From: Actinomycetota bacterium
GTDB lineage: Bacteria; Actinomycetota; Acidimicrobiia; IMCC26256; PALSA-610
Length of the DNA stretch: 38,341 nucleotides
Assembly: GCA_005779345.1 (NCBI GenBank)
Contig: SXJQ01000087.1
Span: forward strand, 1-38,341
Direction: 5' to 3'
Position numbers and translations under genes: made by a program. Under the pieces are notes generated by a model. That model saw nothing but the letters and a program-made list of their open reading frames with translations, had not been told where the DNA came from and searched no databases. Below, piece by piece: positions 1 through 22,637 of this stretch; the stretch's first letter is position 1; each line of letters opens with the position of its first letter.

Positions 1-2
1 GG

Positions 3-1124: not shown

Positions 1125-2209
1125 TCGTCGGCGGTGCCGAGCAAGGCACCCGCGGTCACGAGACGCTTGTAGTACAGGTGGATGTCGTGCTCCCAGGTGA
1201 AGCCGACGCCGCCGAACACCTGGATCGCGGTCGCGCCGAGACGCGGGAGTTCCTCGGCTGCGAACGCTGCGGCCATCATCGCCGCGCGTCGGCCCTCTGC
1301 CGGTTCGGCCGCGTCGAGTGCCCAGCACGCGTAGTAGCCGGCGGCGCGTGCGAGCTCGAGTGCCCGGAGCATGTCGGCGCACAGGTGTTGCACGGCCTGG
1401 AACGAACCGATCGGCCGGTCGAACGCGATCCGTGTCTTCGCATAGTCGACCGCGAGTTCGAGCGCGCGGGCGGCCGCGCCCACCGCGTCGACGACGAGCG
1501 CGGTCGACATCCGGTCGAGAGTCGCCGTGATGCCGGCCTCCGCCGCACCGGTGTCGTGACCGAGTCGCGTTGCCGGCGCGTCGTCGAAGATGACCGTGCC
1601 GGTGGTGCGCGCACCATCGATACCCGGTGAATCGGTCACAGTCACGGTCGGACCCCGGCGGCACGCGTAGGCGCCGATCTCGCCGGAGGGACCGGCCGCG
1701 ACGACGAGGAACAGGTCTGCGACGGCCGCGTCGAGCACGTGCACCTTCGTCCCGCTGATGCGGGGGTCGCCAGTGGTCGAGGGCGTCGCGGTGGTAGCTG
1801 GCGTCGACCAGTCGGTGCGGCGCCCGGGCTCGAACGCGGCGAGGGTCGCGACCTGCGTACCCTCGGCGAGCGTCGCCAGGAGGGCGGCGCGGTCCGACGC
1901 GTTCCCGATCGCGTCGACGAGCGAGATCGCTCCGATCGCCGACGCGAGGTACGGCCCGGGGTACACGGCGCGCCCGCATTCCTCGAGCACCACTGCGGCG
2001 TCGACGAGACCCATGCCGGCCCCACCGTGCTCCTCGGGGGCGAGCAGGCCGACCACACCGAGGGCGGCGAGGCCGCGCCACACCGCGTCGGCACCGACCG
2101 CGGTGCCGTAGTGCTCGCGGACGTAGCCGACGATCGGCGCGCGGTCGGCGAGGTAGCGACGCACCGAGGCGCGGAGCTGTTCCTGCTCGCTCGAGAACTC
2201 GAAATCCAT
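1091..2209 (-). CDS. acyl-CoA dehydrogenase family protein
   Basis: ORF 1091..2479 trimmed to the internal ATG at 2209 (MDFEFSSEQEQLR, a typical ACAD N-terminus). The C-terminal block QVFGGVGFTWEHDIHLYYKR is ACAD-like. The upstream 90 codons are Arg/Ala-rich read-through. Confidence 0.85.
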   Translation of the reverse strand: MDFEFSSEQEQLRASVRRYLADRAPIVGYVREHYGTAVGADAVWRGLAALGVVGLLAPEEHGGAGMGLVDAAVVLEECGRAVYPGPYLASAIGAISLVDAIGNASDRAALLATLAEGTQVATLAAFEPGRRTDWSTPATTATPSTTGDPRISGTKVHVLDAAVADLFLVVAAGPSGEIGAYACRRGPTVTVTDSPGIDGARTTGTVIFDDAPATRLGHDTGAAEAGITATLDRMSTALVVDAVGAAARALELAVDYAKTRIAFDRPIGSFQAVQHLCADMLRALELARAAGYYACWALDAAEPAEGRRAAMMAAAFAAEELPRLGATAIQVFGGVGFTWEHDIHLYYKRLVTAGALLGTADDHLAALADLVL

Positions 2210-2257
2210 GGCGACCGGCCGACTCCCGCGAGCGTTGGTGAGCGGCGTCGAGATTGC

Positions 2258-2271
2258 TGACGCCCGTGTCA
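2258..2271. promoter_or_regulatory. operator-like palindrome TGACG-CCCG-TGTCA (site A)
   Basis: It sits in the 83-bp gap between the divergent ACAD genes, 6 nt upstream of the TACTGT box at 2278-2283. It matches TGACA-N4-TGTCA with one mismatch. Confidence 0.5.
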
Positions 2272-2292
2272 GGAAACTACTGTCCCCGCCGC

Positions 2293-3483
2293 ATGCGACT
2301 CCAGTACGGCGACGCCGAGAACGCCTTCCGGGCCGAGCTGGTCGCCTGGCTCGCCGAGCACACGCCGCCGCGCGAGCTGCTGGAAGCGCCGCGGTTGTCG
2401 AGCGCGCACCTGCCGGACTGGGCCCGCGCCTGGCAGCGCACCTTGTTCGACGCCGGCTGGCTCGTCCCGGGTTGGCCACCCGAGTACGGCGGACGCAACG
2501 CGACCCCCGCGCAGCAGATGATCTACTTCGAAGAACTCAGCGCCCGCGAGATCCCGCGGACCCTCAACCCGCAGGCACTCGGCATCATCGCCCCGTCGAT
2601 TCGCGATTACGGGACCGACGAACAACGCGAGCGATTCGTGTTGCCGACACTGCGCGCGGAGATCGCATGGTCGCTGGGCATGAGCGAGCCGGGCGCGGGG
2701 AGCGACCTCGCGAGCCTCACGACGAAGGCCGTGGTCGACGGCGACGAGTTCGTCGTGAACGGCCAGAAGGTCTGGACGAGCGGTGCGCACCACAGCGACT
2801 GGTGCCTCTGCTTCGTCCGCACCGACCCCGACGCGCCGAAGCACAAGGGGATCAGCGCGCTCATCATCGATATGACCTCGCCGGGGATCGAGTGCCGGCC
2901 GTTCGCGGAGCTGTCTGAACCCGACTTCACCGACTTCAACGAGGTGTTCTTCACCGACGTGCGCGTGCCGCGGGCGAACCTGCTCGGGGCGATGAATGCG
3001 GGGTGGCCGATCACCCAGGGTTCGCTCGCGCACGAGCGGGCGATGCTGTGGATCGACTACGCGTACCTCGTGCAACGCGCCGTGCGGGCGATGCAGTCGC
3101 TCGCCGATCGGCGTGGCCCCGACGGTGGGCGGCTCGGTGACGATGCCCACTTCCGCGATGTGCTCGCCGGGTACTACGTCGACTCGGTGGCGCTCATGGC
3201 GATGGGGTATCGCGGGTTCTCCAAGTTCATGGCCGGCAAGAGCAACCCCGAACACTCGTTGCTGAAGCTCTACGGCTCCGAGACGATGCAGCAGTGCCTC
3301 CTCGCGGCCGTCGAGTTCCTCGGCCCCGAGGCGCTCGACCGCGATGTCGCGGGTCCGCGCATGTGGCGCGAGGGCGGTTGGTCGGTCCAGTACCTCCGAA
3401 GTTTCAGCGGCACGATCCCGGGCGGGACGAGCGAGATCCAGCGCAACATCATCGCCGAGCGTGTCCTCGGTCTCCCGCGCTGA
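2293..3483 (+). CDS. acyl-CoA dehydrogenase family protein
   Basis: ORF 2254..3483. ACAD blocks: WPPEYGG, LGMSEPGAGSDLASL, NGQKVWTSGAH, GGTSEIQRNIIAERVLGLP. Start is taken at ATG 2293 (MRLQYGD), 9 nt after a TACTGT box. Confidence 0.85.
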   Translation: MRLQYGDAENAFRAELVAWLAEHTPPRELLEAPRLSSAHLPDWARAWQRTLFDAGWLVPGWPPEYGGRNATPAQQMIYFEELSAREIPRTLNPQALGIIAPSIRDYGTDEQRERFVLPTLRAEIAWSLGMSEPGAGSDLASLTTKAVVDGDEFVVNGQKVWTSGAHHSDWCLCFVRTDPDAPKHKGISALIIDMTSPGIECRPFAELSEPDFTDFNEVFFTDVRVPRANLLGAMNAGWPITQGSLAHERAMLWIDYAYLVQRAVRAMQSLADRRGPDGGRLGDDAHFRDVLAGYYVDSVALMAMGYRGFSKFMAGKSNPEHSLLKLYGSETMQQCLLAAVEFLGPEALDRDVAGPRMWREGGWSVQYLRSFSGTIPGGTSEIQRNIIAERVLGLPR

Positions 3484-3529
3484 ACGAGCCATTGCGCGGC
3501 GTGAGCGCACGGGTCGGGAGAGGGTGGGT

Positions 3530-4213
3530 TCAGCGTGTCGGCCGCTCGGCGAGCGCTCGGCGCACCGCTGCGACGACCGCCCCTGCTGCCTCGAGGGGCA
3601 AGTAGTGGCCGGCGTCGGCGACCTCGACGTAATGGCCGTCGCGCAGGCTCGCCGCGAGTGTCGCGCCGCGACCTGGCGTGCGGTCGTGCTCGCCGCTCAT
3701 CACGAGCACGCGCCCGGGCCAATCGCGCAGGAACGCCTCGCGATCGAGGCGTGTGTGGAAGGCGTGCACGCCGCGCATGATCGCTGCGATCGGATGGGCG
3801 GCGGCGATGCGCCGCGCACGATCGACCGTGGTCGCGTCGGCGGACGGCCCGAACAGTGGCTCCCAGAATTCGGGCCACGCTCTGTCGATACCCTCCGTCG
3901 CGAGGAGTTCGAGAGCGCGAGCGCGGAGGGCCGGCTCGGGTCGGTGCCCCGGCTTCGCCCCGAGGAGCACGAGCAACTCGACCCGATCCGGGACCATGCG
4001 GGCCATCTCGACGGCCACCGAACCGCCGATGGAGTTGCCGACGATCGTCACGGGTCCGTCGGGGAGCGACTCGACGATCGATCGGGCCCACTCCTCGACG
4101 CTGTCGCCGAGGCCGTACAGCGTGGGCGCGATCACGTCGCCGTCGAACGCATCTCGGAATCCGTCCCACATCGATGCGTCGAGCGGGAGTGCGTGCAGCA
4201 GCACGAGTGTCAC
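3530..4213 (-). CDS. alpha/beta-fold hydrolase
   Basis: 227-aa ORF with a GTG start. It has the VLLHALP N-terminus, the nucleophile elbow GNSIGG, and GEHD and AGHYLP near the C-terminus. It starts 22 nt downstream of the hyuA-like stop on the same strand. Confidence 0.75.
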   Translation of the reverse strand: MTLVLLHALPLDASMWDGFRDAFDGDVIAPTLYGLGDSVEEWARSIVESLPDGPVTIVGNSIGGSVAVEMARMVPDRVELLVLLGAKPGHRPEPALRARALELLATEGIDRAWPEFWEPLFGPSADATTVDRARRIAAAHPIAAIMRGVHAFHTRLDREAFLRDWPGRVLVMSGEHDRTPGRGATLAASLRDGHYVEVADAGHYLPLEAAGAVVAAVRRALAERPTR

Positions 4214-4235
4214 CCGCGGTGGTCCCGGTCGTGCG

Positions 4236-6308
4236 TCACGCCAGGGTCACGAGGGCGTCGCCGGTGGCGGTGATCGTGAGTTCGTCGTCGGGCCCAACGA
4301 CGATGCTCGTGAAGGGCGAGGTGACGATGGCAGGCCCCGTCACGGCGTCGCCGGGTGCGAGGGTGCCGAGGTCGACGATCGCGGTGTCGCGCCAGGCGCC
4401 CTCGATCCACGCCGCCCGCGTGGTCGCGGCCTCGGTCGTCGCAGGTACTGCTGTGGCGCGTACCCCGGCGGGCACCTCGATGCCGACGGCGCCGGTCGCG
4501 ATGACGCGTACGCCGCGCACGATCGGCTCTTGCGCTCGCGCCTCGATCAGGCGCGCCTCCTCGGTGCGGCGGTGGAACTCGTTCACCGCCGCCTCGACGT
4601 GCGCGGCGGTGATCGTCGTGACGTCGTGAGCGACGGGGATCGACGTGTCGAACGTCTGGCCCGGATACACGAGGTCGAGGAACCACTCCTCGCTCCGTCG
4701 TTCGGGCGCGACCCCCGCGTCGTCGAACTCGCGGTGCACCTCGGCGCGGAGTTCCTGGGTCTGGCGGTCGAGCGTCGCGGGGTCGAGGGTCTGCCACGCG
4801 CCGATCGTCGTGCGCGTGCGGTCGATCACGTGATCGGCCTGGAGCAACCCGCACGCGCTGAATCCCGATGCGAGCGCGGGCACGAGTACCCGGCGCATGC
4901 CGAGTGCGCGCGCCTGGGCGACGGCGTGCAGCCCGCCCATCCCGCCGAACGCGACGAGGTCGAGCGAGCGCGGGTCGACGCCCGCGAGGCTCAACACGCG
5001 ACGGATCGCGTCGGTCATGTGCGCCTCGACCAGCCGCACGACGTCGGCGGCGACGACCGTGGGGTCGTCGAGGCCGAGCAGCGCGCCGACCCGCGCCAAC
5101 GCTGCGCTTGCCGCGGCGGCATCGAGCCGGCTGCGGCCGCCCAAGAACGCGTCGGCGTCGAGCCGGCCGAGCGCGAGGTTCGCGTCGGTGACCGTCGGGT
5201 CGGTGCCGCCCTGCGCGTAACAGACGGGTCCGGGCTGGGCCCCGGCACTCCGCGGCCCAACGGTGAGTTGCCCTTGGTCGCTCGCGACGATCGAGCCGCC
5301 GCCTGCACCGATGGCATGGATGTCGACCATCGGGAGCGCGATGCAGTAGCGGTGCCGCCAGTTCCAGTCGGCCTTGAGCTCGGGACGCCCGTCGCGGATG
5401 AGGCAGACGTCGTAGCTCGTACCGCCCATGTCGACGCTGACGACGTCGTGCAACCCAGCAGCGCGCGCGGCACGAGCCGCGGCGACCACGCCACCGGTCG
5501 GCCCGCTGTTGATCGTCGCGACGGCACGACGTGCGATCGAGCGCGTGGTTGCGACGCCGCCGCTGCATGTCGCGACGAGGAGTTCGCGCGTGTAGCCGTG
5601 CGCTGCGAGTCGTGTCAGGAGTCGCTCGAGGTAGTCGACGATCGGCGGTCCGATATAGGCGTTGACGAGTGTGGTGCTCGTACGTTCGAACTCCGGTGGC
5701 TTGGGGAGCACCTCGTGCGACAACGATACGAGCGCGACCTCGGGGTACTCCTCGACCACGATCTCGCGGGCGCGCAGCTCGTGCACCGCGTTGCGATAGC
5801 TGTGCAGGAACACCACGGCGACACTCGTGACGCCGAAGGCGCGGAGTCGACGGACCTGGGCGCGCAGGTGTTCCTCGTCGAGTGCCGTCTCGATCTCGCC
5901 CTCGGCGGTCAGCCGCTCGCGGACCTCGAGGCGCACCCTGCGCCGGGCAATGGGTTCGGGCGGCGGGAACGTCGGGTCCCAGATGTCTTCCTTGAAGCAG
6001 CGCCGGAATTCGATCTCGTCGCGGAAGCCCTCGGTGACGAGCAGCCCGGTGGGAGCGCCGCGCATCTCGATCATCGCGTTGTCGGCCGTCGTGGTGCCGT
6101 GCACGATTCGCGTGGTGGCGGCCAACAGCGACTCGAGCGAACCTGCGCCGAGCACGTCGGTCAGGCGAAGGAGTCCGTCGAGCACGCCCTCGCTCTGGTC
6201 GTGGGGTGTGGTCGGGGTCTTCTCCAACACGACCGTGCCGTCGTCGCCGACCGCGACGCAGTCGGTGAACGTCCCGCCGACGTCGAGTCCGATCTCGTAG
6301 CGGGTCAT
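4236..6308 (-). CDS. hyuA: hydantoinase/oxoprolinase A-type subunit (HyuA family, ATP-dependent)
   Basis: ORF 4236..6998 trimmed to ATG 6308 (MTRYEIGLDVGGTFTDCV, the Hydantoinase_A N-terminal signature). Later blocks: VSVDMGGTSYDV and IGAGGGSI. The start overlaps the upstream gene's stop in an ATGA at 6305-6308. Confidence 0.88.
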   Translation of the reverse strand: MTRYEIGLDVGGTFTDCVAVGDDGTVVLEKTPTTPHDQSEGVLDGLLRLTDVLGAGSLESLLAATTRIVHGTTTADNAMIEMRGAPTGLLVTEGFRDEIEFRRCFKEDIWDPTFPPPEPIARRRVRLEVRERLTAEGEIETALDEEHLRAQVRRLRAFGVTSVAVVFLHSYRNAVHELRAREIVVEEYPEVALVSLSHEVLPKPPEFERTSTTLVNAYIGPPIVDYLERLLTRLAAHGYTRELLVATCSGGVATTRSIARRAVATINSGPTGGVVAAARAARAAGLHDVVSVDMGGTSYDVCLIRDGRPELKADWNWRHRYCIALPMVDIHAIGAGGGSIVASDQGQLTVGPRSAGAQPGPVCYAQGGTDPTVTDANLALGRLDADAFLGGRSRLDAAAASAALARVGALLGLDDPTVVAADVVRLVEAHMTDAIRRVLSLAGVDPRSLDLVAFGGMGGLHAVAQARALGMRRVLVPALASGFSACGLLQADHVIDRTRTTIGAWQTLDPATLDRQTQELRAEVHREFDDAGVAPERRSEEWFLDLVYPGQTFDTSIPVAHDVTTITAAHVEAAVNEFHRRTEEARLIEARAQEPIVRGVRVIATGAVGIEVPAGVRATAVPATTEAATTRAAWIEGAWRDTAIVDLGTLAPGDAVTGPAIVTSPFTSIVVGPDDELTITATGDALVTLA

Positions 6309-8143
6309 CCGCGCGCAGCTCCTGGCCGTGCCGACCGGAGTCGTGCGGTCGTCTCGTGATCGATCGCGAGGTCCATGGCTTCGAGCGATCCGGTGATCGC
6401 CACCCCGTAGTCGCGCGCGGCTCCCTCGATCGACACGTACTCGTCCCACACGTCGTCGAGCACCGCTGCCGGATCGCGCAGGAACGGATCGCCCCATCCG
6501 CCACCGCCGCCGAAGTCGTAGACGAGTTGCTCGCCCGTGGCGAGGAGGTGACGGGCGACCGTCGGCGCGACTTCGACCTCGTGGTCGGTCCCGGCCGCGA
6601 GTACCACACGATCCGGCGCGCCGTTGCGGCCACCGGCGATCCCGGGATGGGTGTGGATGCGGTTCACGACGTACTGATTGACATAGGTCGGGGTCCGCAC
6701 CTCCTTGACGAAATGCGAGCCGCACGCCCCGCGCCACTCGCCGGCGCCGGCCGAGTCGGTGCGGTAGGCGCGACCGCGCAGGAAGTGGGGGAAGAGCACC
6801 TCGTTCAGTTCGGCGCTCGCCTTGATGAGGTTGCCGTTGCTCGCGGCGAGCGCGCCCCAGCCGTCGACGCCGCGGACGCCGTTCACCCAGCCGGCGTTGA
6901 CCTCGCCGCCATGGTCGAAGAACGGTCGGCCCGTGCGCGGGTCGAGGTCGCCCCACATCTGGCGCGGGGCGCCGTACTTGTACGTCTGCGGTGCGCATCG
7001 TTCGGGGATGATCTGCGACATCGCGATCGCGATCGCATCACTCACCTCCACGCCGGGATGGTGGGTCCCCGCGCTCACGGGTTTGCCGACCGGCGGGTTG
7101 ACGCACGTGCCCTCCGGGACCCGCAGATCGATGCAGTCGAAGAAGCCCTCGTTCTTGGGGATCGTCGGGTCGACCATCGATGCGAGCTGGGCGATCGTGT
7201 TGCCGCGCGTGTTGCCGTAGGTGCTCCACGCGTTGATGTGCGGTCGGTCGTCGCTCCCCGCGAAGTCGACGACGAGTCGATCGCCGGCGACCGTCACCGC
7301 GACATGCACGTGGATGTCGGGGTTGCCCGCGGGATCGGCGTCGACGTAGACGTCGGCCTCGTAGGTACCGTCGGGCCACTCGTCGATCGCGGCGGAGAAG
7401 CGGCGGCGCGCTTCGCCGATCGTGTGGTCGATCGCCGCGCGGACGACATCGGCCCCGTGTTCGCTCGCGATCTCACCGAGGCGCCGTACGCCGAGCTGGG
7501 CGGCCCCGATCTGCGCGCGCAGGTCGCCGATGAAGCCGTCGAGGCGGTTGTTCGCCCGCATGGTGAGCACGACATCGCGACGCTCGACGCCACGGTCGAT
7601 GATCTTGAGGAGGGGATAGCGCGTCCCCTCGCTCCAGATATCGGTCGCGAACACGTTGTAGCCGCCCGCGAGCGCGCCGCCGGTGTCACCGTGGTGACAC
7701 TGGATCGACGCAATGACCAACAGCTCGCCGCGATCGTCGAACACCGGCGCGAACACGTTGAAATCCGGGAGGTGTCCGCCGCCGTTGTACGGGTCGTTGG
7801 CGACGATCACGTCGCCGGGCGCGAGTTCGTCGCCGAAGAAGTCGAGGGCGAGCCGTACCGGCAGCGTGCTCGACAACATGAACTGCGGGATCCCGACGCT
7901 CAGGGCGGCGAGCCGGCCGGCGGCGTCGAGGATGGTGGCGTTCCGTTCGTTGCTCTGGTTCAGGATCGGCGTCGTCGCCGTGCGCGACACGTAGGTCGCC
8001 ATCTCGAAGCACACGGTTTCGAATCCCGACCGGATCACCTCGGCGACGATCGCTCCGGTCGGGCCGGTCGGGCCGGTCGCTCCGGCGGCTCCGGTCGGGC
8101 CGGTCGAGTTGGTGGAGCCGGCGGGCGCACGCGGACCTGACAT
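6305..8143 (-). CDS. hyuB: hydantoinase/oxoprolinase B-type subunit (HyuB family)
   Basis: ORF 6305..8161. Hydantoinase_B blocks: NDPYNGGGHLPDFNVF and IQCHHGDTGG. Start is uncertain. I prefer ATG 8143 (MSGPR) because a TATTGT box (plus strand 8151-8156) lies 7 nt upstream; ATG 8161 is the longest option. Confidence 0.85.
   Translation of the reverse strand: MSGPRAPAGSTNSTGPTGAAGATGPTGPTGAIVAEVIRSGFETVCFEMATYVSRTATTPILNQSNERNATILDAAGRLAALSVGIPQFMLSSTLPVRLALDFFGDELAPGDVIVANDPYNGGGHLPDFNVFAPVFDDRGELLVIASIQCHHGDTGGALAGGYNVFATDIWSEGTRYPLLKIIDRGVERRDVVLTMRANNRLDGFIGDLRAQIGAAQLGVRRLGEIASEHGADVVRAAIDHTIGEARRRFSAAIDEWPDGTYEADVYVDADPAGNPDIHVHVAVTVAGDRLVVDFAGSDDRPHINAWSTYGNTRGNTIAQLASMVDPTIPKNEGFFDCIDLRVPEGTCVNPPVGKPVSAGTHHPGVEVSDAIAIAMSQIIPERCAPQTYKYGAPRQMWGDLDPRTGRPFFDHGGEVNAGWVNGVRGVDGWGALAASNGNLIKASAELNEVLFPHFLRGRAYRTDSAGAGEWRGACGSHFVKEVRTPTYVNQYVVNRIHTHPGIAGGRNGAPDRVVLAAGTDHEVEVAPTVARHLLATGEQLVYDFGGGGGWGDPFLRDPAAVLDDVWDEYVSIEGAARDYGVAITGSLEAMDLAIDHETTARLRSARPGAARG
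8056..8109. repeat. six tandem 9-bp units (CCGGTCGGG and variants), in frame in the hyuB 5' region
   Basis: Units: 8056 ccggtcggg, 8065 ccggtcggg, 8074 ccggtcgct, 8083 ccggcggct, 8092 ccggtcggg, 8101 ccggtcgag. On the minus strand they encode STGPTGAAGATGPTGPTGA. Confidence 0.8.
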
Positions 8144-8151
8144 GGATGTCA
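8138..8151. promoter_or_regulatory. operator-like palindrome TGACA-TGGA-TGTCA (site B)
   Basis: Perfect TGACAT/ATGTCA arms centred on the CATG shared by the hyuB and ligase start candidates. It abuts the hyuB -10-like box. Confidence 0.5.
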
Positions 8152-9776
8152 CAATACGCATCGTGACCTTCGCCTGGGATCCGCGACCGCCCTCGGCCGA
8201 ACTCCAGCGTCGTTACGTCGCGGCGGGATGGTGGGATGACCAGACGCTCGGCACGCTGCTCGCGTCGGGCCTCGCCGACGCGGCGGCCGAGCCGTTCACG
8301 GTCCGTTCCGAACGTCGACCGTTCCGGGGCACGCTCGGCGCGGTCGACGAACTCGCGCGCCGGATCGCGGCAGGGATGCGGGCGCGCGGGATCGGGCCGG
8401 GCGATGTCGTCGCATTCCAGTTGCCGAACTGGGTCGAGGCCGCGGCGACGTTCTACGCGGCCTGCTATCTGGGAGTGACGATCGTGCCGATCGTCCACTT
8501 CTACGGCGCCAAGGAGGTCGGCTACATCCTGCGGCGCACGCAGGTGAAGGCCCTGATCACGACGGATCGGTTCGGGGCCCAGGACTTCCTCGGGAACCTC
8601 GAGCAGTTGCGAGTCGATCCGGGAGGGCTCCCCGACCTCGAGTGGGTCGCGGTCGTCGGCGAAGCGTCGTTCGCCTCGCTGGTCGGCGACGATCTCATCG
8701 ACGCGCCGGTCGCTGTTGCTCCCGAGTCGCCCGCGCTCATCGCGTTCACGAGCGGGACGACGAGCGACCCGAAGGGTGTCGTGCATGCGCACCGCACCAT
8801 TGGCGCCGAGATCCGACAGCTCGGTGGGATCCAGCCGACGGTCGGGGCCGCGATGCTCACCGGCGCACCCGTCGGTCACGGTATCGGGATGCTCGCCGCG
8901 CTCCTGCTCCCGGTGTGGCGGCGCGGCGCGATCCATCTGATCGACGTATGGGACCCCGCGCGGGTCCTGGCGGCGATGCTCGACGACGGCCTGTCGGCGG
9001 GGCAGGGCGCCACGGTCTTTCTCACGAGCCTGCTCGACCACCCCGACTTCGACCTCGAACGCCACGGCCCGCTCATGGCAACGATCGGGCTCGGCGGCGC
9101 GGCCGTGCCGGTCGCGGTGTGCGAGCGCGCCCGCGGGCTCGGGATCGAATGTTCACGTTCCTACGGCTGTACCGAGCACCCGTCGATCACCGGGTCGACG
9201 TTCGCCGACCCGTGGGAGCAGCGTTGTACGACCGACGGAGTTCCGCTCCCCGGTGTCGAAATCCGCCTCGTCGACGACCGCGGCCGCGACGTCGACCGCG
9301 CGACGCCGGGCGAGATCTGGAGTCGCGGCCCCGACTGCTTCTGGGGCTACACCGATCCCGCGCTCGACGACTGCTTCGTCGACGGGTGGTACCGCACCGG
9401 CGATGTCGGCGTGCTCGACGAACACGGTCGGCTCGCGATCACCGATCGAGTGAAGGACATCATCATCCGCGGTGGGGAGAACATCTCGGCCCAGGAGGTG
9501 GAGGAACTCCTCATGCGCTTGCCGGGCGTCGCGGAGTGCGCGGTCGTCGCGGCGCCCGACCCGCGCCTCGGCGAGCACGCCGCTGCGTTCTTTCGGATGC
9601 AGGAGGGCAGCGAGGTACCGACGCTCGACGTGGTGCAGCGCCACCTCGACACGGCGGGTCTGGCGAAGCCGAAGTGGCCCGAAGAACTGCATTCGGTGGG
9701 GGAGTTCCCGCGCACGCCGAGCGGCAAGGTGCAGAAGTTCGTGTTGCGCGGCCGATTGCGAGACGCGGGTGGCTGA
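8142..9776 (+). CDS. AMP-dependent acyl-CoA synthetase/ligase
   Basis: ORF 8109..9776. AMP-binding motif FTSGTTSDPKGV, plus YGCTEHP, WYRTGDVG and PRTPSGKVQKF. Start is uncertain (TTG 8109, ATG 8142, GTG 8163). ATG 8142 shares the CATG at 8141-8144 with the hyuB ATG. Confidence 0.85.
   Translation: MDVTIRIVTFAWDPRPPSAELQRRYVAAGWWDDQTLGTLLASGLADAAAEPFTVRSERRPFRGTLGAVDELARRIAAGMRARGIGPGDVVAFQLPNWVEAAATFYAACYLGVTIVPIVHFYGAKEVGYILRRTQVKALITTDRFGAQDFLGNLEQLRVDPGGLPDLEWVAVVGEASFASLVGDDLIDAPVAVAPESPALIAFTSGTTSDPKGVVHAHRTIGAEIRQLGGIQPTVGAAMLTGAPVGHGIGMLAALLLPVWRRGAIHLIDVWDPARVLAAMLDDGLSAGQGATVFLTSLLDHPDFDLERHGPLMATIGLGGAAVPVAVCERARGLGIECSRSYGCTEHPSITGSTFADPWEQRCTTDGVPLPGVEIRLVDDRGRDVDRATPGEIWSRGPDCFWGYTDPALDDCFVDGWYRTGDVGVLDEHGRLAITDRVKDIIIRGGENISAQEVEELLMRLPGVAECAVVAAPDPRLGEHAAAFFRMQEGSEVPTLDVVQRHLDTAGLAKPKWPEELHSVGEFPRTPSGKVQKFVLRGRLRDAGG
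8151..8156 (-). promoter_or_regulatory. -10-like box TATTGT for a leaderless hyuB-hyuA-hydrolase transcript
   Basis: The complement of acaata at 8151-8156 lies 7 nt upstream of ATG 8143. Confidence 0.35.
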
Positions 9777-9807
9777 TGCCGACGGCGCGCCCGCGAGCGA
9801 GTCGACG

Positions 9808-10587
9808 ATGGGGAGTGCGGGCGAGGTCGCGATCGTCGCTCTCGTCGCGGCCGATCTCGTGTCCGATGGCGCGCAGGCCGTCGTGTTGGGTGGCTCGGTG
9901 GCTCGTGGCGATGCGCATCGTTTCTCCGACCTCGACATGGTCGCGATCGGCGCGGCCGGAGGCGGACCGGAGTACGCGTTGCGGGTCGTCGACGGCCGTC
10001 TCGTCTCGGTGTCGTGGCGCACCGGCGACGATGTGCGCGCGCTCATCGACTCGCCCGCCGATGCCGGCGGCGCGGTCCCCGCGTGGCGCGCCGCGCGAAT
10101 CGTGCACGACCAGAAGGGCTGGGCGGCCGCGCTCCAGGAGTTCGCGCGAGGTTGGTCGTGGTCGCGAATCGACGCGGCGTGCGACGAGTACGTCGCCGAC
10201 GCGACCGTCGGTCTCGCCGAGGAGGTCCTGCGGCTCGCAGGAATGCTCGAGGTCGGCAATCTCGCGGCGGCGGCGGCAATGCGCAACGTGTTGGCGCTCC
10301 GCCTCCCGATGGTGATGGCCGTGCACCACCGGATCCTGTACGACAGCGAGAACGCGCTGTGGGCCGCGGTCGACGCCGCCATGGGACCTGCCTGGACCGC
10401 CGACGCGGCAGCCGCCGCGGGGATCGCGACGGTCGACCTCGCGGCGGGATGCGCGGCGGCGGGCGCGATGTACACGGCGGCCGTCGCGGCGGCGCGGCCA
10501 CTCATCGGCGCTGACGGCCGGGCGGTGGTCGACCTCGCGTCGGAGGTCGCTGCGGGATTGCGCGGTCGCGGCCCACGACGTGAGTAG
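9808..10587 (+). CDS. pol-beta-fold nucleotidyltransferase domain protein with helical C-terminal domain
   Basis: ORF 9472..10587 trimmed to ATG 9808, past the ligase stop. Motif: GGSVARGDAHRFSDLDMVAI (GS-x9-D-x-D of NTP_transf_2). At 259 aa its size and layout resemble kanamycin-nucleotidyltransferase-like proteins. The substrate is unknown. Confidence 0.7.
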   Translation: MGSAGEVAIVALVAADLVSDGAQAVVLGGSVARGDAHRFSDLDMVAIGAAGGGPEYALRVVDGRLVSVSWRTGDDVRALIDSPADAGGAVPAWRAARIVHDQKGWAAALQEFARGWSWSRIDAACDEYVADATVGLAEEVLRLAGMLEVGNLAAAAAMRNVLALRLPMVMAVHHRILYDSENALWAAVDAAMGPAWTADAAAAAGIATVDLAAGCAAAGAMYTAAVAAARPLIGADGRAVVDLASEVAAGLRGRGPRRE

Positions 10588-10599
10588 GTTGACCGGTTC

Positions 10600-10932
10600 A
10601 TGAGTGAGGAGCGGCGGCGTTATCAGCGCCACGACGTGCGGGTCGCAGCGTTGTGCCGGCGGGTGTCCGAACACGGCATCGAACCCGCGGCGCACGGCGA
10701 GACGACCGACCTGTCGCTCGGCGGGTTCGGCGCGGTGCTCGACGAGTACTTCGAGACCGGCGACGTCGTCGACGTTGATCTCGTGCTCGTGCCGCACCTC
10801 GTGACCCTGCGCGCGCTGGTGGTCGACGTCTCGCCCGCGGGCGACCGCGTGCGGATCCACTGCATCTACACCGATCCGCCGCCGATGGTCGCCCGTGCGA
10901 TCGATGACTTCCTCAGCGCCCGCAACGCTTGA
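10600..10932 (+). CDS. stand-alone PilZ domain protein (putative c-di-GMP receptor)
   Basis: 110-aa ORF with both PilZ signature motifs. RxxxR is in EERRRYQRH (codons 10615-10629) and DxSxxG is DLSLGG (10708-10725). Confidence 0.75.
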   Translation: MSEERRRYQRHDVRVAALCRRVSEHGIEPAAHGETTDLSLGGFGAVLDEYFETGDVVDVDLVLVPHLVTLRALVVDVSPAGDRVRIHCIYTDPPPMVARAIDDFLSARNA

Positions 10933-11010
10933 CCGACCCCACCGTCCCGAACGTTGAGTGGAGAACCCGTAAATACGGGTTCTCCACTCAACGTTGCGGT
11001 GGGTCGGGCG
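10931..11010. terminator. long perfect hairpin between convergent genes (bidirectional intrinsic terminator or REP-like element)
   Basis: The arms AACGTTGAGTGGAGAACCCGTA (10950-10971) and TACGGGTTCTCCACTCAACGTT (10974-10995) are perfect reverse complements (22 bp). Imperfect outer arms GACCGACCCCACCG / CGGTGGGTCGG extend the stem. It lies between the PilZ stop (10932) and the amidohydrolase stop (11030). There is no U-tract. Confidence 0.6.
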
Positions 11011-11029
11011 GGTGGTGGAGTCGGGCGGG

Positions 11030-12697
11030 TCAGCGGCCGTCGAGGAGCGCGCCGGGGCGGGCGTCGAGGCCCGCGGTGGCGGGGGCGCCATCGACGCGGA
11101 TCGCGACGCCGTTCACGAGCGTGTGCGTCATGCCCACGGGAGCGTCGGCGGTGAGACGCTCACCGCCGGCCGGGAAGTCGCGCACCCGACGCAGGCCGCC
11201 GGGCGCGACCGTCGCGAAATCGAACACGGTGATGTCGGCGGCCTTGCCGACCTCGAGCGTGCCGCGATCGTGGAGTCCGTACACCGCCGCGGGTTCGCCC
11301 GAGAGTTTGTGGATCGCGCGTTCGAGGGGCATGACCTCCTTCTCGCGGACCCAGTTGCCGAGCAGGTCGGTGGCGAAGCACGCGTCGCAGAGTTGGCCGA
11401 CGTGCGCCCCGGAGTCGGCGAGGCCGAGCAACGCGTTGTCCTGCGGGAGCAGCCAGGCGATCGCCTCGGGATCGTTGTTGGCGAGCACCGACCAGAAGCG
11501 CGTCTCGAGATCGTCGTCGAGCGCGATGTCGAGCATGGCCTCGAGCGCGTTGACGCCGCGTTCGGCCGCGAGTTCGACGACCGACCGGCCGATGAGTTCG
11601 GGGTGCCGGTTCGATTCTGCGATCGACATCGCTCCCCAATTGGGCGGGAGCACCTTGGAGGTCGTCAGGTCGGTCCAGGCGCGGGCGCGCCATTCGGGCG
11701 ACCGGTAGGCCGCCGCACGTTCGTCGCGGGGCCGGTCCATCAGCTCGGCGAACGTGTCGCGCATGTTGAAGGTGAACGGCTCCAGCAGGTTCATCTGGAA
11801 CACGAGCGGACGGCACGACACCTGCGGCCACACCTCGATGCCCTCGGCTCGAGCGCGGTCGTGCTCCTCCATCACCCGGACGTGGTAATCGAGGCCCTTG
11901 ATCGTGAGCAACGCCGTCCACGTGAACGGTCGCCCGATCTCGCGTTGGAGGTCGAACATCTGCTGGTTCGAGAACACCCCGCCCGGGAGCATGGCGACGA
12001 CGCCACGGCCCGCCTCGCGCACGGGGTCCATCAGGGCGCGCAGCTCGGCGATCCCGGCGACCCGCGACGGCACCGGGCGACCGCGGTCGCCGTTGTGAGT
12101 CGGCGAGGCCGACGTCGCGAAGCCGATCGCGCCACCGTCCATCGCGTCGCGCACGAGGTCCTGCATCGCGCCGAGTTCCGCCTCGGTCGCGTCGCGCTCG
12201 TAGGACTCGTCGCCCATCACGTGGATGCGCAGCGCGGTATGGCCGATGTAGCAGCCGTAGTTCAGTGCGGTCCCGCGCCGAGCGATCGCCTGGAGATACT
12301 GCGGGAACGACTCGAATTCGTCCCAGGGCACACCGGCCGCGAGCGTGTCGAAGCTCATGTCTTCGACGTGTTGGAGCGTGCGGGCGAGGAGCCCGACGTT
12401 GTCGGGCGTCACCGGCGCGATCGTGAATCCGCAGTTGCCCGCGATCACCGACGTGACCCCGTGGAACGATGACGGCGTGAGCGCCGGATCCCAGAACACC
12501 TGCGCGTCGAAGTGGGTGTGGATGTCGACGAAGCCCGGGCTGACGATCTGACCGGCCGCGTCGAGCTCGCGTCGCCCCGACAGGCCGGGGCCGATCTCGC
12601 GAATCCGGCCGTCGCTGATCGCAACGTCGGCGGCGTAGCCCGGCGCTCCCGTGCCGTCGACGACGGTCCCACCCTTGATGACGATGTCGGCAGTCAT
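11030..12697 (-). CDS. amidohydrolase family protein (N-acyl-D-amino-acid deacylase / D-aminoacylase-like)
   Basis: ORF 11030..12859 trimmed to ATG 12697 (MTADIVIKGGTVVDGTG). Metal-binding block: SPGFVDIHTHFD. The D-aminoacylase-like block GVTSVIAGNCGF is also present. Confidence 0.8.
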   Translation of the reverse strand: MTADIVIKGGTVVDGTGAPGYAADVAISDGRIREIGPGLSGRRELDAAGQIVSPGFVDIHTHFDAQVFWDPALTPSSFHGVTSVIAGNCGFTIAPVTPDNVGLLARTLQHVEDMSFDTLAAGVPWDEFESFPQYLQAIARRGTALNYGCYIGHTALRIHVMGDESYERDATEAELGAMQDLVRDAMDGGAIGFATSASPTHNGDRGRPVPSRVAGIAELRALMDPVREAGRGVVAMLPGGVFSNQQMFDLQREIGRPFTWTALLTIKGLDYHVRVMEEHDRARAEGIEVWPQVSCRPLVFQMNLLEPFTFNMRDTFAELMDRPRDERAAAYRSPEWRARAWTDLTTSKVLPPNWGAMSIAESNRHPELIGRSVVELAAERGVNALEAMLDIALDDDLETRFWSVLANNDPEAIAWLLPQDNALLGLADSGAHVGQLCDACFATDLLGNWVREKEVMPLERAIHKLSGEPAAVYGLHDRGTLEVGKAADITVFDFATVAPGGLRRVRDFPAGGERLTADAPVGMTHTLVNGVAIRVDGAPATAGLDARPGALLDGR

Positions 12698-12704
12698 GGC
12701 CCGG

Positions 12705-12710
12705 ACGCTA
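12705..12710 (-). promoter_or_regulatory. -10-like box TAGCGT for a leaderless amidohydrolase transcript
   Basis: The complement of acgcta at 12705-12710 lies 7 nt upstream of ATG 12697. Confidence 0.35.
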
Positions 12711-12718
12711 CGCCTCCC

Positions 12719-12732
12719 TGACACCCGTGTCA
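12719..12732. promoter_or_regulatory. operator-like palindrome TGACA-CCCG-TGTCA (site C)
   Basis: Extended perfect 7-bp arms CTGACAC/GTGTCAG (12718-12733), 8 nt upstream of the amidohydrolase -10-like box. It is almost identical to site A, including the CCCG centre. Confidence 0.55.
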
Positions 12733-12799
12733 GATGCCGTCGGGGGCAGGTTCTCCCGTGCTCGCTTCCGCCCGGCGACGGGGCGCGGCCACCCAACCT

Positions 12800-12813
12800 T
12801 GACACGCGCGTCA
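12800..12813. promoter_or_regulatory. operator-like palindrome TGACA-CGCG-CGTCA (site D) overlapping a TTGACA -35 box
   Basis: One mismatch to TGACA-N4-TGTCA. It overlaps TTGACA at 12799-12804, which lies 18 nt upstream of GAGGCT (12823-12828), and that box lies 8 nt before the ADH ATG at 12837. Confidence 0.4.
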
Positions 12814-12836
12814 GGTTTCCGTGAGGCTCGAACCCG

Positions 12837-13886
12837 ATGCCCGAGATTCCCGACCACATGCCCGCGGCCGTCCTGTATGGGATCCGCGACGTGCAGGTCG
12901 AGACGCGGCCGGTCCCGGTCGTCGGCCCCGACGAGGTATTGCTCGAGGTCGGCTACTGCGGGATCTGTGGGTCCGACATCCACTTCATCGTCGAGTGGCC
13001 CGGTGCCGCCAAGCCCGGGAGCATCGAAGGGCACGAGTTCTCCGGGACGATCGTCGCAGTGGGCGATGCGGTCCGCGAGTGGCAGGTGGGCGACGCGGTC
13101 GTCGGTGGGCCGAGCCCGCGGTGCGGGCGGTGCCGGTTCTGCCTCGACCAGCGCCCGTCGCTCTGCGTCGAGCGCGGCAAGGTCGGTGCCGACGACAGCG
13201 ACTGGCAGGGCGCATTCGCGCGGTACAAGAAGATGCCGGCCGCGCAACTGCTCCGCGTCCCCGACGGTCTCGATCTCAAGCATGCCGCGCTCGTCGAGCC
13301 GATGGCCGTCTCGTTGCACGGCATCACCCGCGCCGGCGGCGCCGACCCGACGAAGCGCTATCTCGTCACCGGCGGTGGGCCGATCGGATTCCTGAGCGTG
13401 GCCGCGCTCCTCGCGGGCGGCGTCACCGATGTCGTGGTGAGCGAACCCCACGAGGGGCGTCGCGCCCTCTGTGCGCGCATCGGCGCGCGGGTCGTGACGC
13501 CAGACGAACTCGTCGCGCCGAGCATGCCGCACGACGTCGCCGACGAGCCTTTCGACATCGTGCTCGAGTGCAGCGGACACCGCGAAGCGATGGAGTCGGG
13601 GCTCGCCCAACTCCGCCGCGGGGGCCGGCTCGTCCTCGTGGGCGCCGGGATTCGGCCGCCGCGCTTCGACCCGAACCGCATCTTGCTGAACGAGCTGGAG
13701 ATCACCGGCGCGTTCGTGTACGACCACGACGGGTTTCCCCGCGCGCTCGAGCTCCTCGCGAGTGGTCGGGTCCCGCTCGAACTGCTCGTCGAGCCCGACG
13801 ACATCCCGCTCGACGGCATCGTGCAGGCGAGCGTCGACCTGTTCGAGGGGCGCCGACCCGCGAAGGCCATGGTCGTTCCCCGATGA
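12837..13886 (+). CDS. zinc-dependent alcohol dehydrogenase (MDR family)
   Basis: 349-aa ORF with the catalytic Zn motifs YCGICGSDIH and GHEFSG. The structural Zn cluster is CGRCRFCLDQRPSLC and the NAD fold is VTGGGPIGF. Confidence 0.85.
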   Translation: MPEIPDHMPAAVLYGIRDVQVETRPVPVVGPDEVLLEVGYCGICGSDIHFIVEWPGAAKPGSIEGHEFSGTIVAVGDAVREWQVGDAVVGGPSPRCGRCRFCLDQRPSLCVERGKVGADDSDWQGAFARYKKMPAAQLLRVPDGLDLKHAALVEPMAVSLHGITRAGGADPTKRYLVTGGGPIGFLSVAALLAGGVTDVVVSEPHEGRRALCARIGARVVTPDELVAPSMPHDVADEPFDIVLECSGHREAMESGLAQLRRGGRLVLVGAGIRPPRFDPNRILLNELEITGAFVYDHDGFPRALELLASGRVPLELLVEPDDIPLDGIVQASVDLFEGRRPAKAMVVPR

Positions 13887-13947
13887 CGAACCCGCCGCGC
13901 CACGGCATTCCCCGTCTCGACATCGCGAACCAGAAAGGCGCCACGCC

Positions 13948-22582: not shown

Positions 22583-22590
22583 CGGCGGCG

Positions 22591-22630
22591 ACTCTACGCG
22601 CCGCCCATCGGGTGCGCGACCCCGTACGAT
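22591..22630. promoter_or_regulatory. back-to-back -10-like boxes in the 55-bp divergent gap
   Basis: TAGAGT (complement of 22591-22596) lies 8 nt before ATG 22582 on the minus strand. TACGAT (22625-22630) lies 7 nt before TTG 22638 on the plus strand. Confidence 0.35.
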
Positions 22631-22637
22631 CGGCACC

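What the first reader, a model, noticed from the sequence alone, without database searches (positions are those of the whole stretch)
2258..12813. Shared palindrome TGACA-N4-TGTCA in three divergent promoter regions: one unseen regulator may control the whole catabolic set
There are four copies. Site A (2258-2271, TGACGCCCGTGTCA) lies between the two ACAD genes. Site B (8138-8151, TGACATGGATGTCA) lies between hyuB and the ligase. Site C (12719-12732, TGACACCCGTGTCA) and site D (12800-12813, TGACACGCGCGTCA) lie between the amidohydrolase and the ADH. Sites A and C are nearly identical over 16 nt (CTGAC[G/A]CCCGTGTCAG). Every copy sits in or beside a predicted -35/-10/TSS region, which is the position expected for a repressor. 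Intergenic DNA is a tiny share of this window, so four hits confined to it are unlikely by chance. No HTH regulator is encoded in the window. The motif does not match the operators I know for KstR, KstR2, PaaR or FadR-type regulators. An everted arrangement, GTGTCAC-CGTG-GTGACAC, also occurs inside hyuB at 7683-7700.
Basis: seen in the sequence. Interest (0 to 1): 0.65.

Follow-up and report, generated by a model that had tools for sequence, protein, structure and literature searches.

The report
Shared repressor operator on catabolic promoters
Four copies of a 16-base palindrome sit on the promoters of six neighbouring breakdown-pathway gene units and are conserved in related uncultured actinobacteria, so they are very probably the docking site of one repressor encoded elsewhere: a real but ordinary kind of gene switch.

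Summary
TGAC-N6-GTCA occurs exactly four times in the window, at the stated coordinates; 0 of 100 shuffles reach four. All four copies lie in the three divergent intergenic regions of the catabolic part, which make up 0.6% of the window.

The full motif is cTGACAY-NN-RTGTCAg. It is conserved upstream of the orthologous ACAD, hyuB, ligase, amidohydrolase and ADH genes in about 15 Acidimicrobiia or Actinomycetota genomes, including ones where gene order has changed. Across the window and 80 related loci, 41 of 52 sites lie next to gene starts (p about 3e-23).

The sites overlap core promoter elements of apparently leaderless genes. At hyuB the start codon lies inside the palindrome. This placement points to a repressor.

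No DNA-binding regulator is encoded in the window. The best lead is a TetR-family protein with a TetR_C_24 C-terminal domain. Such genes sit next to sites in several related loci, and one family carries the motif in its own promoter. This identification is not proven.

The everted copy inside hyuB is a by-product of the codons for the invariant peptide CHHGDT.

Verdict: a real regulon operator, a new member of a known kind, of moderate interest.

The parts
2257..2272 (.). Site A, CTGACGCCCGTGTCAG. It lies in the 83-nt divergent region between the two acyl-CoA dehydrogenase (ACAD) genes.
   Evidence: 21.5 bits. It is conserved in L001, L002, L021, L079 and L138, with its centre 26.5-30.5 bp from the ACAD start codon.
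8137..8152 (.). Site B, CTGACATGGATGTCAC. It contains the hyuB start codon (8143 to 8141, minus strand) and ends 11 bp before the ligase GTG start.
   Evidence: 23.1 bits. Orthologous sites with ATG or GTG at motif positions 9-11 occur in L001, L002, L005, L021 and L079.
12718..12733 (.). Site C, CTGACACCCGTGTCAG, upstream of the amidohydrolase gene (minus strand).
   Evidence: 24.4 bits. L021 has the same layout: motif, 8 nt, TANNNT, 6-7 nt, ATG.
12799..12814 (.). Site D, TTGACACGCGCGTCAG, upstream of the Zn-alcohol dehydrogenase gene. Its left half is a perfect TTGACA.
   Evidence: 20.8 bits. Orthologous sites in L021, L025 and L055 share the layout TTGAC..GTCAGGTT, then GAnnnT, 6-8 nt, ATG.
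2278..2283 (+). Inferred -10 hexamer TACTGT of the ACAD gene at 2293-3483, 9 nt before its ATG. This suggests a leaderless or near-leaderless transcript.
   Evidence: A TANNNT hexamer is conserved at this place in 7 of 7 orthologous promoters. This is inference, with no transcript data.
2274..2279 (-). Inferred -10 hexamer TAGTTT on the minus strand, for the ACAD gene at 1091-2209. The predicted start site falls inside site A.
   Evidence: TA(G/C)TTT is conserved on this strand in L001, L002, L021 and L079. This is inference.
8151..8156 (-). Inferred -10 hexamer TATTGT of hyuB. Its last T is the first T of site B, and 7 nt separate it from the ATG.
   Evidence: L001 has TATTGT; L005, L021 and L079 have TAGTCT at the same register. 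TANNNT is enriched at this offset, in 16 of 192 site orientations.
8150..8155 (+). Inferred -10-like hexamer CACAAT of the ligase gene, 7 nt before its GTG at 8163.
   Evidence: The string TGTCACAATA is shared by the window and L001, followed 6-7 nt later by the start codon. This is inference.
12705..12710 (-). Inferred -10 hexamer TAGCGT of the amidohydrolase gene, 7 nt before its ATG at 12697.
   Evidence: L021 has TACGCT at the same register.
12823..12828 (+). Inferred -10-like hexamer GAGGCT of the ADH gene, 8 nt before its ATG at 12837 and 18 nt after the TTGACA of site D.
   Evidence: The orthologues have GAGATT, GATGCT and GAGACT.
1091..2209 (-). Acyl-CoA dehydrogenase gene, a target unit.
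   Evidence: Pfam Acyl-CoA_dh_N, _M and _1.
2293..3483 (+). Acyl-CoA dehydrogenase gene, a target unit.
   Evidence: Pfam. The start codon is fixed by orthologue alignment.
3530..8143 (-). Target operon of three genes: hyuB (6305-8143), hyuA (4236-6308) and an alpha/beta hydrolase (3530-4213).
   Evidence: Pfam Hydantoinase_B, Hydantoinase_A and Abhydrolase_6. The genes overlap or abut one another.
8163..10932 (+). Target unit: an AMP-dependent ligase (8163-9776), probably co-transcribed with a nucleotidyltransferase-like gene (9784-10587) and a PilZ gene (10600-10932).
   Evidence: Pfam AMP-binding, NTP_transf_2 and PilZ. Co-transcription is inferred from gaps of 7 and 12 nt.
11030..12697 (-). 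Amidohydro_3-family amidohydrolase gene, a target unit.
   Evidence: Pfam.
12837..15389 (+). Target unit: a Zn-ADH (12837-13886), a 155-aa protein with no Pfam match (13948-14415) and a luciferase-like oxidoreductase (14412-15389).
   Evidence: Pfam. The three genes stay together in 15-25 related loci.
7683..7700 (-). Everted repeat GTGTCAC-CGTG-GTGACAC inside hyuB. It is not part of the system.
   Evidence: It encodes the invariant peptide CHHGDT. Most of the 81 orthologues use other codons, and the palindrome is then lost.

Best explanation
The four palindromes are operators of one dimeric transcriptional repressor that is encoded outside this window. The consensus is cTGACAY-NN-RTGTCAg, a 6-2-6 inverted repeat.

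Each operator overlaps the core promoter of one or two divergent units, so a bound repressor keeps RNA polymerase off.
- At the ACAD at 2293, the amidohydrolase and the ADH, the operator covers the -35 position and the spacer.
- At hyuB it runs from the last base of the -10 hexamer to +6 of a leaderless mRNA whose start codon lies inside the palindrome.
- At the second ACAD the predicted start site lies inside the operator.

Six transcription units are therefore switched together: two ACADs, hyuB-hyuA-hydrolase, the ligase unit, the amidohydrolase, and ADH-unknown-LLM. They are presumably released when a pathway metabolite (an acyl-CoA or the substrate itself) binds the repressor.

The repressor is most likely a TetR-family protein with a TetR_C_24-type ligand domain. 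I put this sub-claim at about 0.5.

What is shown: the sites, their statistics, and their conservation in sequence and geometry. What is inferred: the promoter elements, leaderless transcription, repression, the family of the regulator and its effector.
For: **Statistics.**
- There are 4 sites against 0.52 expected by shuffling.
- All four lie in 0.6% of the window, and nothing else scores above 10.3 bits.

**Conservation.**
- L001, L002, L005, L021, L025 and L079 keep sites upstream of the orthologous genes.
- In L025 and L021 gene order is rearranged or a KduI gene is inserted, yet each unit keeps its own site.
- 41 of 52 sites are promoter-proximal.
- The distance from site centre to the ACAD start is 26.5-30.5 bp in 7 loci. 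The distance to the other ACAD varies from 26.5 to 84.5 bp.
- The flanks diverge, but the palindrome and a TANNNT hexamer are kept.

**Both halves matter.** The start codon of hyuB lies inside the right half, while the N-terminal peptide that follows is not conserved.

**Metagenome scan.**
- Exact CTGACACNNGTGTCAG in GC-rich contigs lies mostly just upstream of genes.
- These genes belong to the same families: Amidohydro_2, ACAD pair, thiolase/ChsH2, enoyl-CoA hydratase and ABC ATPases.

**TetR lead.**
- The L178 TetR has a perfect site 38 bp upstream of its start.
- Orthologues found by protein homology alone (L213, L214, L211) carry sites of 18.5-21.4 bits within 100 bp of their starts.
- Of about 40 TetR genes in the 80 hyuB loci, the closest relatives of the L178 TetR all lie in loci with sites: L019, L004, L054, L011, L013 and L020.
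- In L011, L013 and L020 the TetR is the last gene of an operon that shares a site-bearing divergent region with P450-hyuB-hyuA.
Against: - No regulator gene is in the window or within 10 kb in the best-conserved loci, so the link to any protein is indirect.
- The divergent TetR pairs of L004 and L054 have no site in their own intergenic region.
- Relatives of the c71-type TetR fit poorly. L220 and L222 have no strong site in 14 kb full of similar genes. The sites next to that family (TTGACWTCGAWGTCAA) differ in the centre from the window's sites.
- Three L178-type contexts (L201, L217, L219) lack a site.
- One metagenome site lies upstream of a MerR gene (L083).
- The standard promoter scan finds nothing, and no transcript data exist.
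- Many conserved sites are orthologous, so the p-values overstate independence.
Confidence: 0.72

Rival explanations
1. The operator is real, but the regulator belongs to a family other than TetR (MerR, GntR, IclR, MarR or similar). It acts as a repressor in the same way.
For: No regulator is linked in the window or in the closest loci. One metagenome site lies 52 bp upstream of a MerR-family gene (L083). The TetR links are incomplete.
Against: TetR genes are next to sites far more often: L178, L101, L019, L011, L013 and L020, against a single MerR. One TetR family keeps the site in its own promoter across orthologues. The 6-2-6 layout with an AC-NN-GT core matches known TetR boxes such as KstR.
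Confidence: 0.2
2. The palindrome binds an activator, either CRP/FNR-like or MerR-like, that recruits or remodels RNA polymerase.
For: The 5-4-5 shape resembles FNR-type boxes (from memory). In three promoters the site lies between the -35 and -10 positions, where MerR-type activators sit.
Against: At hyuB the site spans the -10 hexamer and the start site, a position that blocks rather than helps polymerase. Site centres lie at about -28 to -30, not -41.5. The inferred spacers are 17-18 nt, not the 19-20 nt typical of MerR promoters. The half-site TGACA differs from TGTGA and from TTGAT.
Confidence: 0.06
3. There is no dedicated regulator. The TGACA halves are simply -35 elements of back-to-back promoters, and the symmetry comes from bidirectional promoter architecture.
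For: Site D carries a perfect TTGACA, and the left halves of sites A and C sit where a -35 would be. Overlapping -10 hexamers on both strands show that these are bidirectional promoters.
Against: At hyuB the motif is at -10 to +6, not at -35. The right half-site is as conserved as the left, even though it has no -35 role for any gene at the ADH or amidohydrolase promoters. Positions 6 and 9 (Y and R) are also conserved. The four other divergent promoter regions in the window lack the motif. The motif recurs upstream of TetR genes in an unrelated lineage.
Confidence: 0.05
4. The sites are a chance cluster or copies of a repeated mobile element.
For: The motif is short.
Against: 0 of 100 shuffles reach four copies. 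The flanks of the four sites are unrelated to each other. The sites are conserved at orthologous positions across genomes with 74-88% protein identity.
Confidence: 0.01

Closest known systems
KstR regulon of mycobacteria, a TetR repressor with box TnnAACnnGTTnnA (PMC1995591)
   Same: Both have a 14-bp palindrome with a 6-2-6 layout and an AC-NN-GT core. Both have many sites in the intergenic regions of scattered lipid or acyl-CoA catabolic genes (ACAD pairs, ligases, thiolase/ChsH2-type genes), sometimes two sites in one divergent region. In both, most targets are unlinked to the regulator gene.
   Different: Positions 2-4 read GAC here, not AGA. Positions 4 and 11 are C and G in about 99% of sites, where KstR requires A and T. 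The target set includes hyuA/hyuB and amidohydrolases, and there is no evidence for steroid genes. The host is Acidimicrobiia-like. The regulator is not identified and autoregulation has not been seen.
RutR box of E. coli, TTGACCAnnTGGTCAA (PMC2475637), and McbR box of C. glutamicum, TAGAC-N6-GTCTA (cited in PMC2723105)
   Same: These are 16-bp TetR-family operators with a GAC-N6-GTC core. RutR shares the full TGAC-N6-GTCA.
   Different: The inner bases differ: CCA..TGG in RutR and unspecified in McbR, against ACAY..RTGT here. The outer bases differ: TA in McbR against cT here. Site C, the window's best-scoring site, differs from the RutR consensus at 6 of 14 specified positions.
Thermus thermophilus FadR, an acyl-CoA-responsive TetR with box TTRNACYNRGTNYAA (PMC5597230)
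   Same: It is a TetR repressor of fatty-acid degradation genes with an AC..GT core, and its operators overlap promoters.
   Different: It has an odd spacing (15 bp, AC-N3-GT) and different outer bases.
Symmetric bidirectional promoters with -10 elements overlapping on opposite strands (recalled from memory, not checked here)
   Same: The ACAD pair and the hyuB/ligase pair have -10-like hexamers overlapping on both strands, with start points about 20-25 bp apart.
   Different: Here one operator is laid over the shared promoter. The transcripts appear to be leaderless.

Membership tests
TetR-family operator and regulon | A palindromic operator of about 14-16 bp bound by a dimer | tested here: met
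   The consensus cTGACAY-NN-RTGTCAg is symmetric over 16 positions.
TetR-family operator and regulon | The operator overlaps core promoter elements of the repressed genes | tested here: inconclusive
   Conserved TANNNT hexamers and start codons at fixed distances place the sites on the -35/spacer or on -10/+1. The consensus promoter scan is negative, and no start sites have been mapped.
TetR-family operator and regulon | A TetR gene lies next to a site, usually divergent or within the regulated operon, and is often autoregulated | tested here: inconclusive
   This is not met in the window. It is met in L019, L011, L013, L020, L178, L213, L214 and L211. It is not met for the TetR pairs of L004 and L054, nor for L201, L217, L219 and L222.
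TetR-family operator and regulon | The protein binds the site and is released by a ligand | not testable with these tools
   This needs EMSA or DAP-seq with candidate proteins.
KstR box | TnnAACnnGTTnnA | tested here: not met
   Positions 4 and 11 are C and G in 99% of 41 sites. The KstR consensus is taken from PMC1995591.
RutR box | TTGACCAnnTGGTCAA | tested here: not met
   The window's sites carry ACAC..GTGT where RutR has ACCA..TGGT.
CRP/FNR-type site | TGTGA-N6-TCACA or TTGAT-N4-ATCAA, centred near -41.5 or -61.5 | tested here: not met
   The half-site is TGACA. Site centres lie about 28-30 bp from the start codons, and about -1.5 at hyuB. The consensus sequences are from memory.
MerR-type operator | A dyad inside a 19-20-nt spacer between -35 and -10, with the regulator gene usually adjacent | tested here: not met
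   The inferred spacers are 17-18 nt, site B lies over the start site, and there is no MerR gene in the window. One metagenome case has an adjacent MerR gene (L083).
Repeated mobile element (REP/MITE) | Copies share flanking sequence beyond the core and are scattered without regard to gene function | tested here: not met
   The flanks of the four sites are unrelated. Sites sit at orthologous promoters in other genomes.

The most novel reading that the evidence does not exclude
The motif marks a large, so far undescribed KstR-like regulon of uncultured soil Acidimicrobiia. It would coordinate an unknown catabolic pathway that combines ATP-dependent hydantoinase/oxoprolinase-type ring opening (hyuAB), CoA ligation, paired ACADs, amidohydrolases and F420/luciferase-like oxidoreductases. 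Its repressor may act as a TetR heterodimer or a fused double TetR, as in L019, L004 and L054.
Probability: 0.3. Interest if true: 0.5.

Novelty: new member of a known kind. Interest (0 to 1): 0.38.

Why it matters
- The motif ties 13 genes in six units into one regulon. These genes would otherwise be annotated separately, as hyuAB, two ACADs, a CoA ligase, two amidohydrolase types and several oxidoreductases.
- This is the best available clue that they form a single pathway in a poorly known, uncultured actinobacterial lineage.
- The 16-mer can be used directly as a probe, by DNA pull-down, DAP-seq or a genome-wide matrix scan. That would find the regulator and the rest of the regulon, and from the regulator's ligand, the substrate.
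- The finding also gives clean examples of leaderless, bidirectional promoters controlled by a single operator.
- It does not reveal a new regulatory principle.

Tried and rejected
**Searches that led nowhere.**
- I looked up the window's own contig through exact protein matches (ACAD, ADH). It is not in the collection, so the source genome could not be scanned.
- The E. coli-type promoter and terminator scan of the three regions found nothing.
- I looked for a regulator among syntenic neighbours. Clusters c57, c3, c45, c44, c22, c53 and c38 are KduI, SDR, methyltransferase, GT2, EEP, M24 peptidase and CoA-transferase. Clusters c29 and c40 have no Pfam hit. None is a regulator.
- Inspecting 63 further small proteins from site-bearing loci found only the Frankia TetR.
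- A regular-expression search for the TetR helix-turn-helix found nothing. It was replaced by phmmer with seed regulator sequences written from memory.
- Literature searches for the motif string returned only plant WHIRLY, CopR and GraR papers. A search for LiuR in Actinobacteria was not informative.

**Tests with weak or negative results.**
- The divergent TetR pairs of L004 and L054 have no site in their own intergenic region.
- The c71-type TetR contexts L220 and L222 have no strong sites.
- The Myxococcota-like TetR contexts L201, L217 and L219 have no site.

**Readings rejected.**
- The everted repeat at 7683-7700 was tested as a second kind of site and rejected. It encodes CHHGDT, and the palindrome is lost in most orthologues.
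- CRP/FNR and MerR-type readings were rejected on geometry.
Full report
**1. The observation**

The pattern TGAC-N6-GTCA occurs exactly four times in the 38,341-base window, at 2258, 8138, 12719 and 12800. Dinucleotide-preserving shuffles give a mean of 0.52, and none of 100 reaches four. The stricter TGACA-N4-TGTCA with one mismatch gives the same four sites. Sites A and C differ at one of 16 positions. The window is 70% G+C.

**2. Gene map**

I called genes by third-position G+C and Pfam.

| Coordinates | Strand | Product |
|---|---|---|
| 1-1124 | + | GGDEF/EAL protein |
| 1091-2209 | - | ACAD |
| 2293-3483 | + | ACAD |
| 3530-4213 | - | alpha/beta hydrolase |
| 4236-6308 | - | hyuA |
| 6305-8143 | - | hyuB |
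| 8163-9776 | + | AMP-dependent ligase |
| 9784-10587 | + | nucleotidyltransferase-like protein |
| 10600-10932 | + | PilZ protein |
| 11030-12697 | - | Amidohydro_3 protein |
| 12837-13886 | + | Zn-ADH |
| 13948-14415 | + | 155-aa protein with no Pfam hit |
| 14412-15389 | + | luciferase-like oxidoreductase |
| 15.4 kb to the end | both | membrane glycosyl- and acyltransferases |

- No called ORF has a DNA-binding domain.
- Regulator seed sequences find nothing among the window's six-frame ORFs.
- Intergenic DNA is 2.3% of the window.
- The four sites occupy the three divergent intergenic regions of the catabolic part (83, 19 and 139 nt).
- The four divergent regions of the envelope part have none.
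- After the four sites (20.8-24.4 bits), the best matrix score in the window is 10.3 bits.

**3. Conservation**

A search of one genome per species with hyuB returned 80 loci, mostly Acidimicrobiia MAGs, at 72-88% protein identity. After calling and clustering their genes, I found the motif upstream of the orthologous genes in about 15 of them.

- L001 has sites at ligase/hyuB and at the ACAD pair.
- L021 has sites at ADH, amidohydrolase, hyuB/ligase and the ACAD pair. A KduI gene has been inserted between ADH and amidohydrolase, and each still has its own site.
- L025 has a rearranged gene order. The ADH, the ligase, hyuB and two ACAD genes each still carry a site.

Over the window plus all 80 loci, 41 of 52 sites with at most one mismatch lie within -150 to +60 of a called gene start. 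That class holds 16% of positions (binomial p about 3e-23). Orthologous sites are not independent, so this figure overstates the evidence.

The symmetrised profile of the 41 sites gives cTGACAY-NN-RTGTCAg, with weak A/T preference just outside it.

**4. Geometry and promoters**

Promoter regions were aligned on the start codons.

- **ACAD at 2293.** Seven loci share ATTGC-TGACAC..GTGTCA-GGAAA-TANNNT, followed 7-9 nt later by ATG. The site centre is 26.5-30.5 bp from the start codon. The distance to the other ACAD varies from 26.5 to 84.5 bp.
- **Second ACAD.** A conserved TA(G/C)TTT lies on the opposite strand and overlaps that -10 hexamer by two bases. It points at the second ACAD, so that gene's predicted start site falls inside the palindrome.
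- **hyuB.**
  - The window reads TATTGT-GACATCC-ATG.
  - L001 reads TATTGT-GACACTC-GTG.
  - L005 and L021 read TAGTCT-GACACGC-ATG, and L079 reads TAGTCT-GACATGC-ATG.
  - The last T of the -10 hexamer is the first base of the motif, and the start codon occupies motif positions 9-11.
  - The residues after Met-Ser are not conserved. The DNA, not the protein, is therefore under constraint.
- **Ligase.** In the window and in L001 the ligase begins 6-7 nt after CACAAT, which overlaps the hyuB -10 on the other strand.
- **Amidohydrolase.** The layout is motif, 8 nt, TANNNT, 6-7 nt, ATG in the window and in L021.
- **ADH.** The layout is TTGAC..GTCAGGTT, 7 nt, GAnnnT, 6-8 nt, ATG in the window, L021 and L055.

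TANNNT hexamers are enriched at these offsets over 96 strong sites.

None of these promoters passes an E. coli-type consensus scan. The promoter and leaderless assignments are therefore inferences from conservation and from the known actinobacterial -10 rule.

Taken together, each operator lies on the -35/spacer or on -10/+1 of every unit it flanks. This placement fits a repressor.

**5. Wider distribution**

- 56 of them have at least 60% G+C.
- In those 56, most sites lie just upstream of genes.
- The genes belong to related families: Amidohydro_2 in five loci, an ACAD pair, thiolase/ChsH2-type genes, enoyl-CoA hydratase, ABC ATPases, and a neighbour of hyuB.
- Hits in AT-rich contigs look like chance or coding matches.

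**6. The regulator**

No regulator gene is linked in the window or in the best-conserved loci. Three lines point to the TetR family.

*(a) A TetR with the motif in its own promoter.*
- In metagenome locus L178, a 191-aa TetR (TetR_N plus TetR_C_24) has a perfect site 38 bp upstream of its start. It is divergent from a BcrAD/BadFG-type gene.
- Its orthologues were found by protein similarity only (one is named Labilithrix).
- L213, L214 and L211 carry sites of 19.4, 21.4 and 18.5 bits within about 40-90 bp of their starts.
- Three other contexts, where the TetR is not next to that gene, have no site.

*(b) The closest relatives lie in site-bearing loci.* The 80 hyuB loci hold about 40 TetR genes. 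The closest relatives of the L178 TetR all lie in loci with promoter sites:
- the fused double TetR of L019;
- the divergent TetR pairs of L004 and L054;
- the c71 TetR of L011, L013 and L020.

*(c) Typical TetR arrangements.*
- In L019 the site lies between the TetR gene and hyuB.
- In L011, L013 and L020 a 20-bit site lies between P450-hyuB-hyuA and an operon ending in the TetR gene.

*Against this.*
- The TetR pairs of L004 and L054 have no site of their own.
- The c71 family is very common in Acidimicrobiia. Two of three further contexts have no strong site.
- The c71-linked sites read TTGACWTCGAWGTCAA, which is related to the window's sites but not identical.
- One site lies upstream of a MerR gene (L083).

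I therefore hold the TetR assignment at about 0.5.

**7. Comparison with known systems**

- The motif string is not reported for any bacterial TetR in the searchable literature.
- It shares the 6-2-6 layout and AC-NN-GT core of the KstR box TnnAACnnGTTnnA, but fails that consensus at positions 4 and 11.
- It shares TGAC-N6-GTCA with the RutR box and GAC-N6-GTC with the McbR box, but differs elsewhere.
- It does not fit CRP/FNR or MerR geometry.
- It works like a KstR-type regulon operator: a palindrome spread over many catabolic promoters, with the regulator elsewhere. It is not a member of that regulon.

**8. The everted repeat**

GTGTCAC-CGTG-GTGACAC at 7683-7700 is present. On the coding strand it reads TGT CAC CAC GGT GAC ACC, the invariant hyuB peptide CHHGDT. 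Most of the 81 orthologues use TGC and GGC, which destroys the palindrome. It is a coding by-product.

**9. Verdict**

It is a new regulon operator of a familiar kind, with an unidentified and probably TetR-type repressor. Interest is moderate.

Noticed in passing
window 8050-8126: A 9-nt tandem array (CCGGTCGGG, 5.8 copies) encodes a Pro/Thr/Gly/Ala-rich insert. It lies between the hyuB start codon and the conserved TAEVIR motif, and the orthologues lack it.
   Followed up: partly
window 2274-2283 and 8150-8156: -10-like hexamers overlap on opposite strands: AAACTA/TACTGT at the first place and CACAAT/ACAATA at the second. This suggests bidirectional, largely leaderless promoters. The pattern is conserved in L001, L002, L021 and L079.
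   Followed up: partly
window 1-1124 and 10600-10932: A GGDEF/EAL gene and a PilZ gene flank or sit within the catabolic cluster, and both are also present in L001. A possible c-di-GMP link was not explored.
   Followed up: no
window 15430-38341: A large cluster of PMT_2, Acyl_transf_3, GT2, DUF2142 and methyltransferase membrane proteins, likely for cell-envelope glycan synthesis. It has no motif sites. The ORF at 21101-22960 (minus strand) overlaps the gene at 22359-25088, so its true start is uncertain.
   Followed up: no
L019 1739-3085 (minus strand); L004 7907-9287; L054 4266-5730: L019 has a fused double TetR of 449 aa with two TetR_N domains. Its two halves are orthologous to the two members of the divergent TetR pairs in L004 and L054. 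This suggests a heterodimeric TetR that became fused.
   Followed up: partly
L012, L033 and L039, about 66 bp upstream of hyuB: A different palindrome, (T/C)GAAACTAGTCTCA, takes the place of the motif upstream of hyuB. This implies a different regulator in those lineages.
   Followed up: no
L220 8800-8990: About eight tandem copies of a roughly 17-nt unit (..GGTCATCGCTGCACA..) lie in the intergenic region between a TetR gene and an Amidohydro_3 gene.
   Followed up: no
L201 about 2740-2830; L217 and L219, about 200 nt upstream of the TetR gene: A conserved element of about 60 nt (..ccgccattgccatc...acgccag..) lies upstream of the Myxococcota-like TetR in the contexts that lack the palindrome.
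   Followed up: no
L211 2762-2781; L214 3734-3753: A nested repeat, GACTGACGTGTCAGTCAG, lies next to the BcrAD/BadFG gene. It is a second, shorter-spaced variant (CTGAC-GT-GTCAG) beside the regular site.
   Followed up: no
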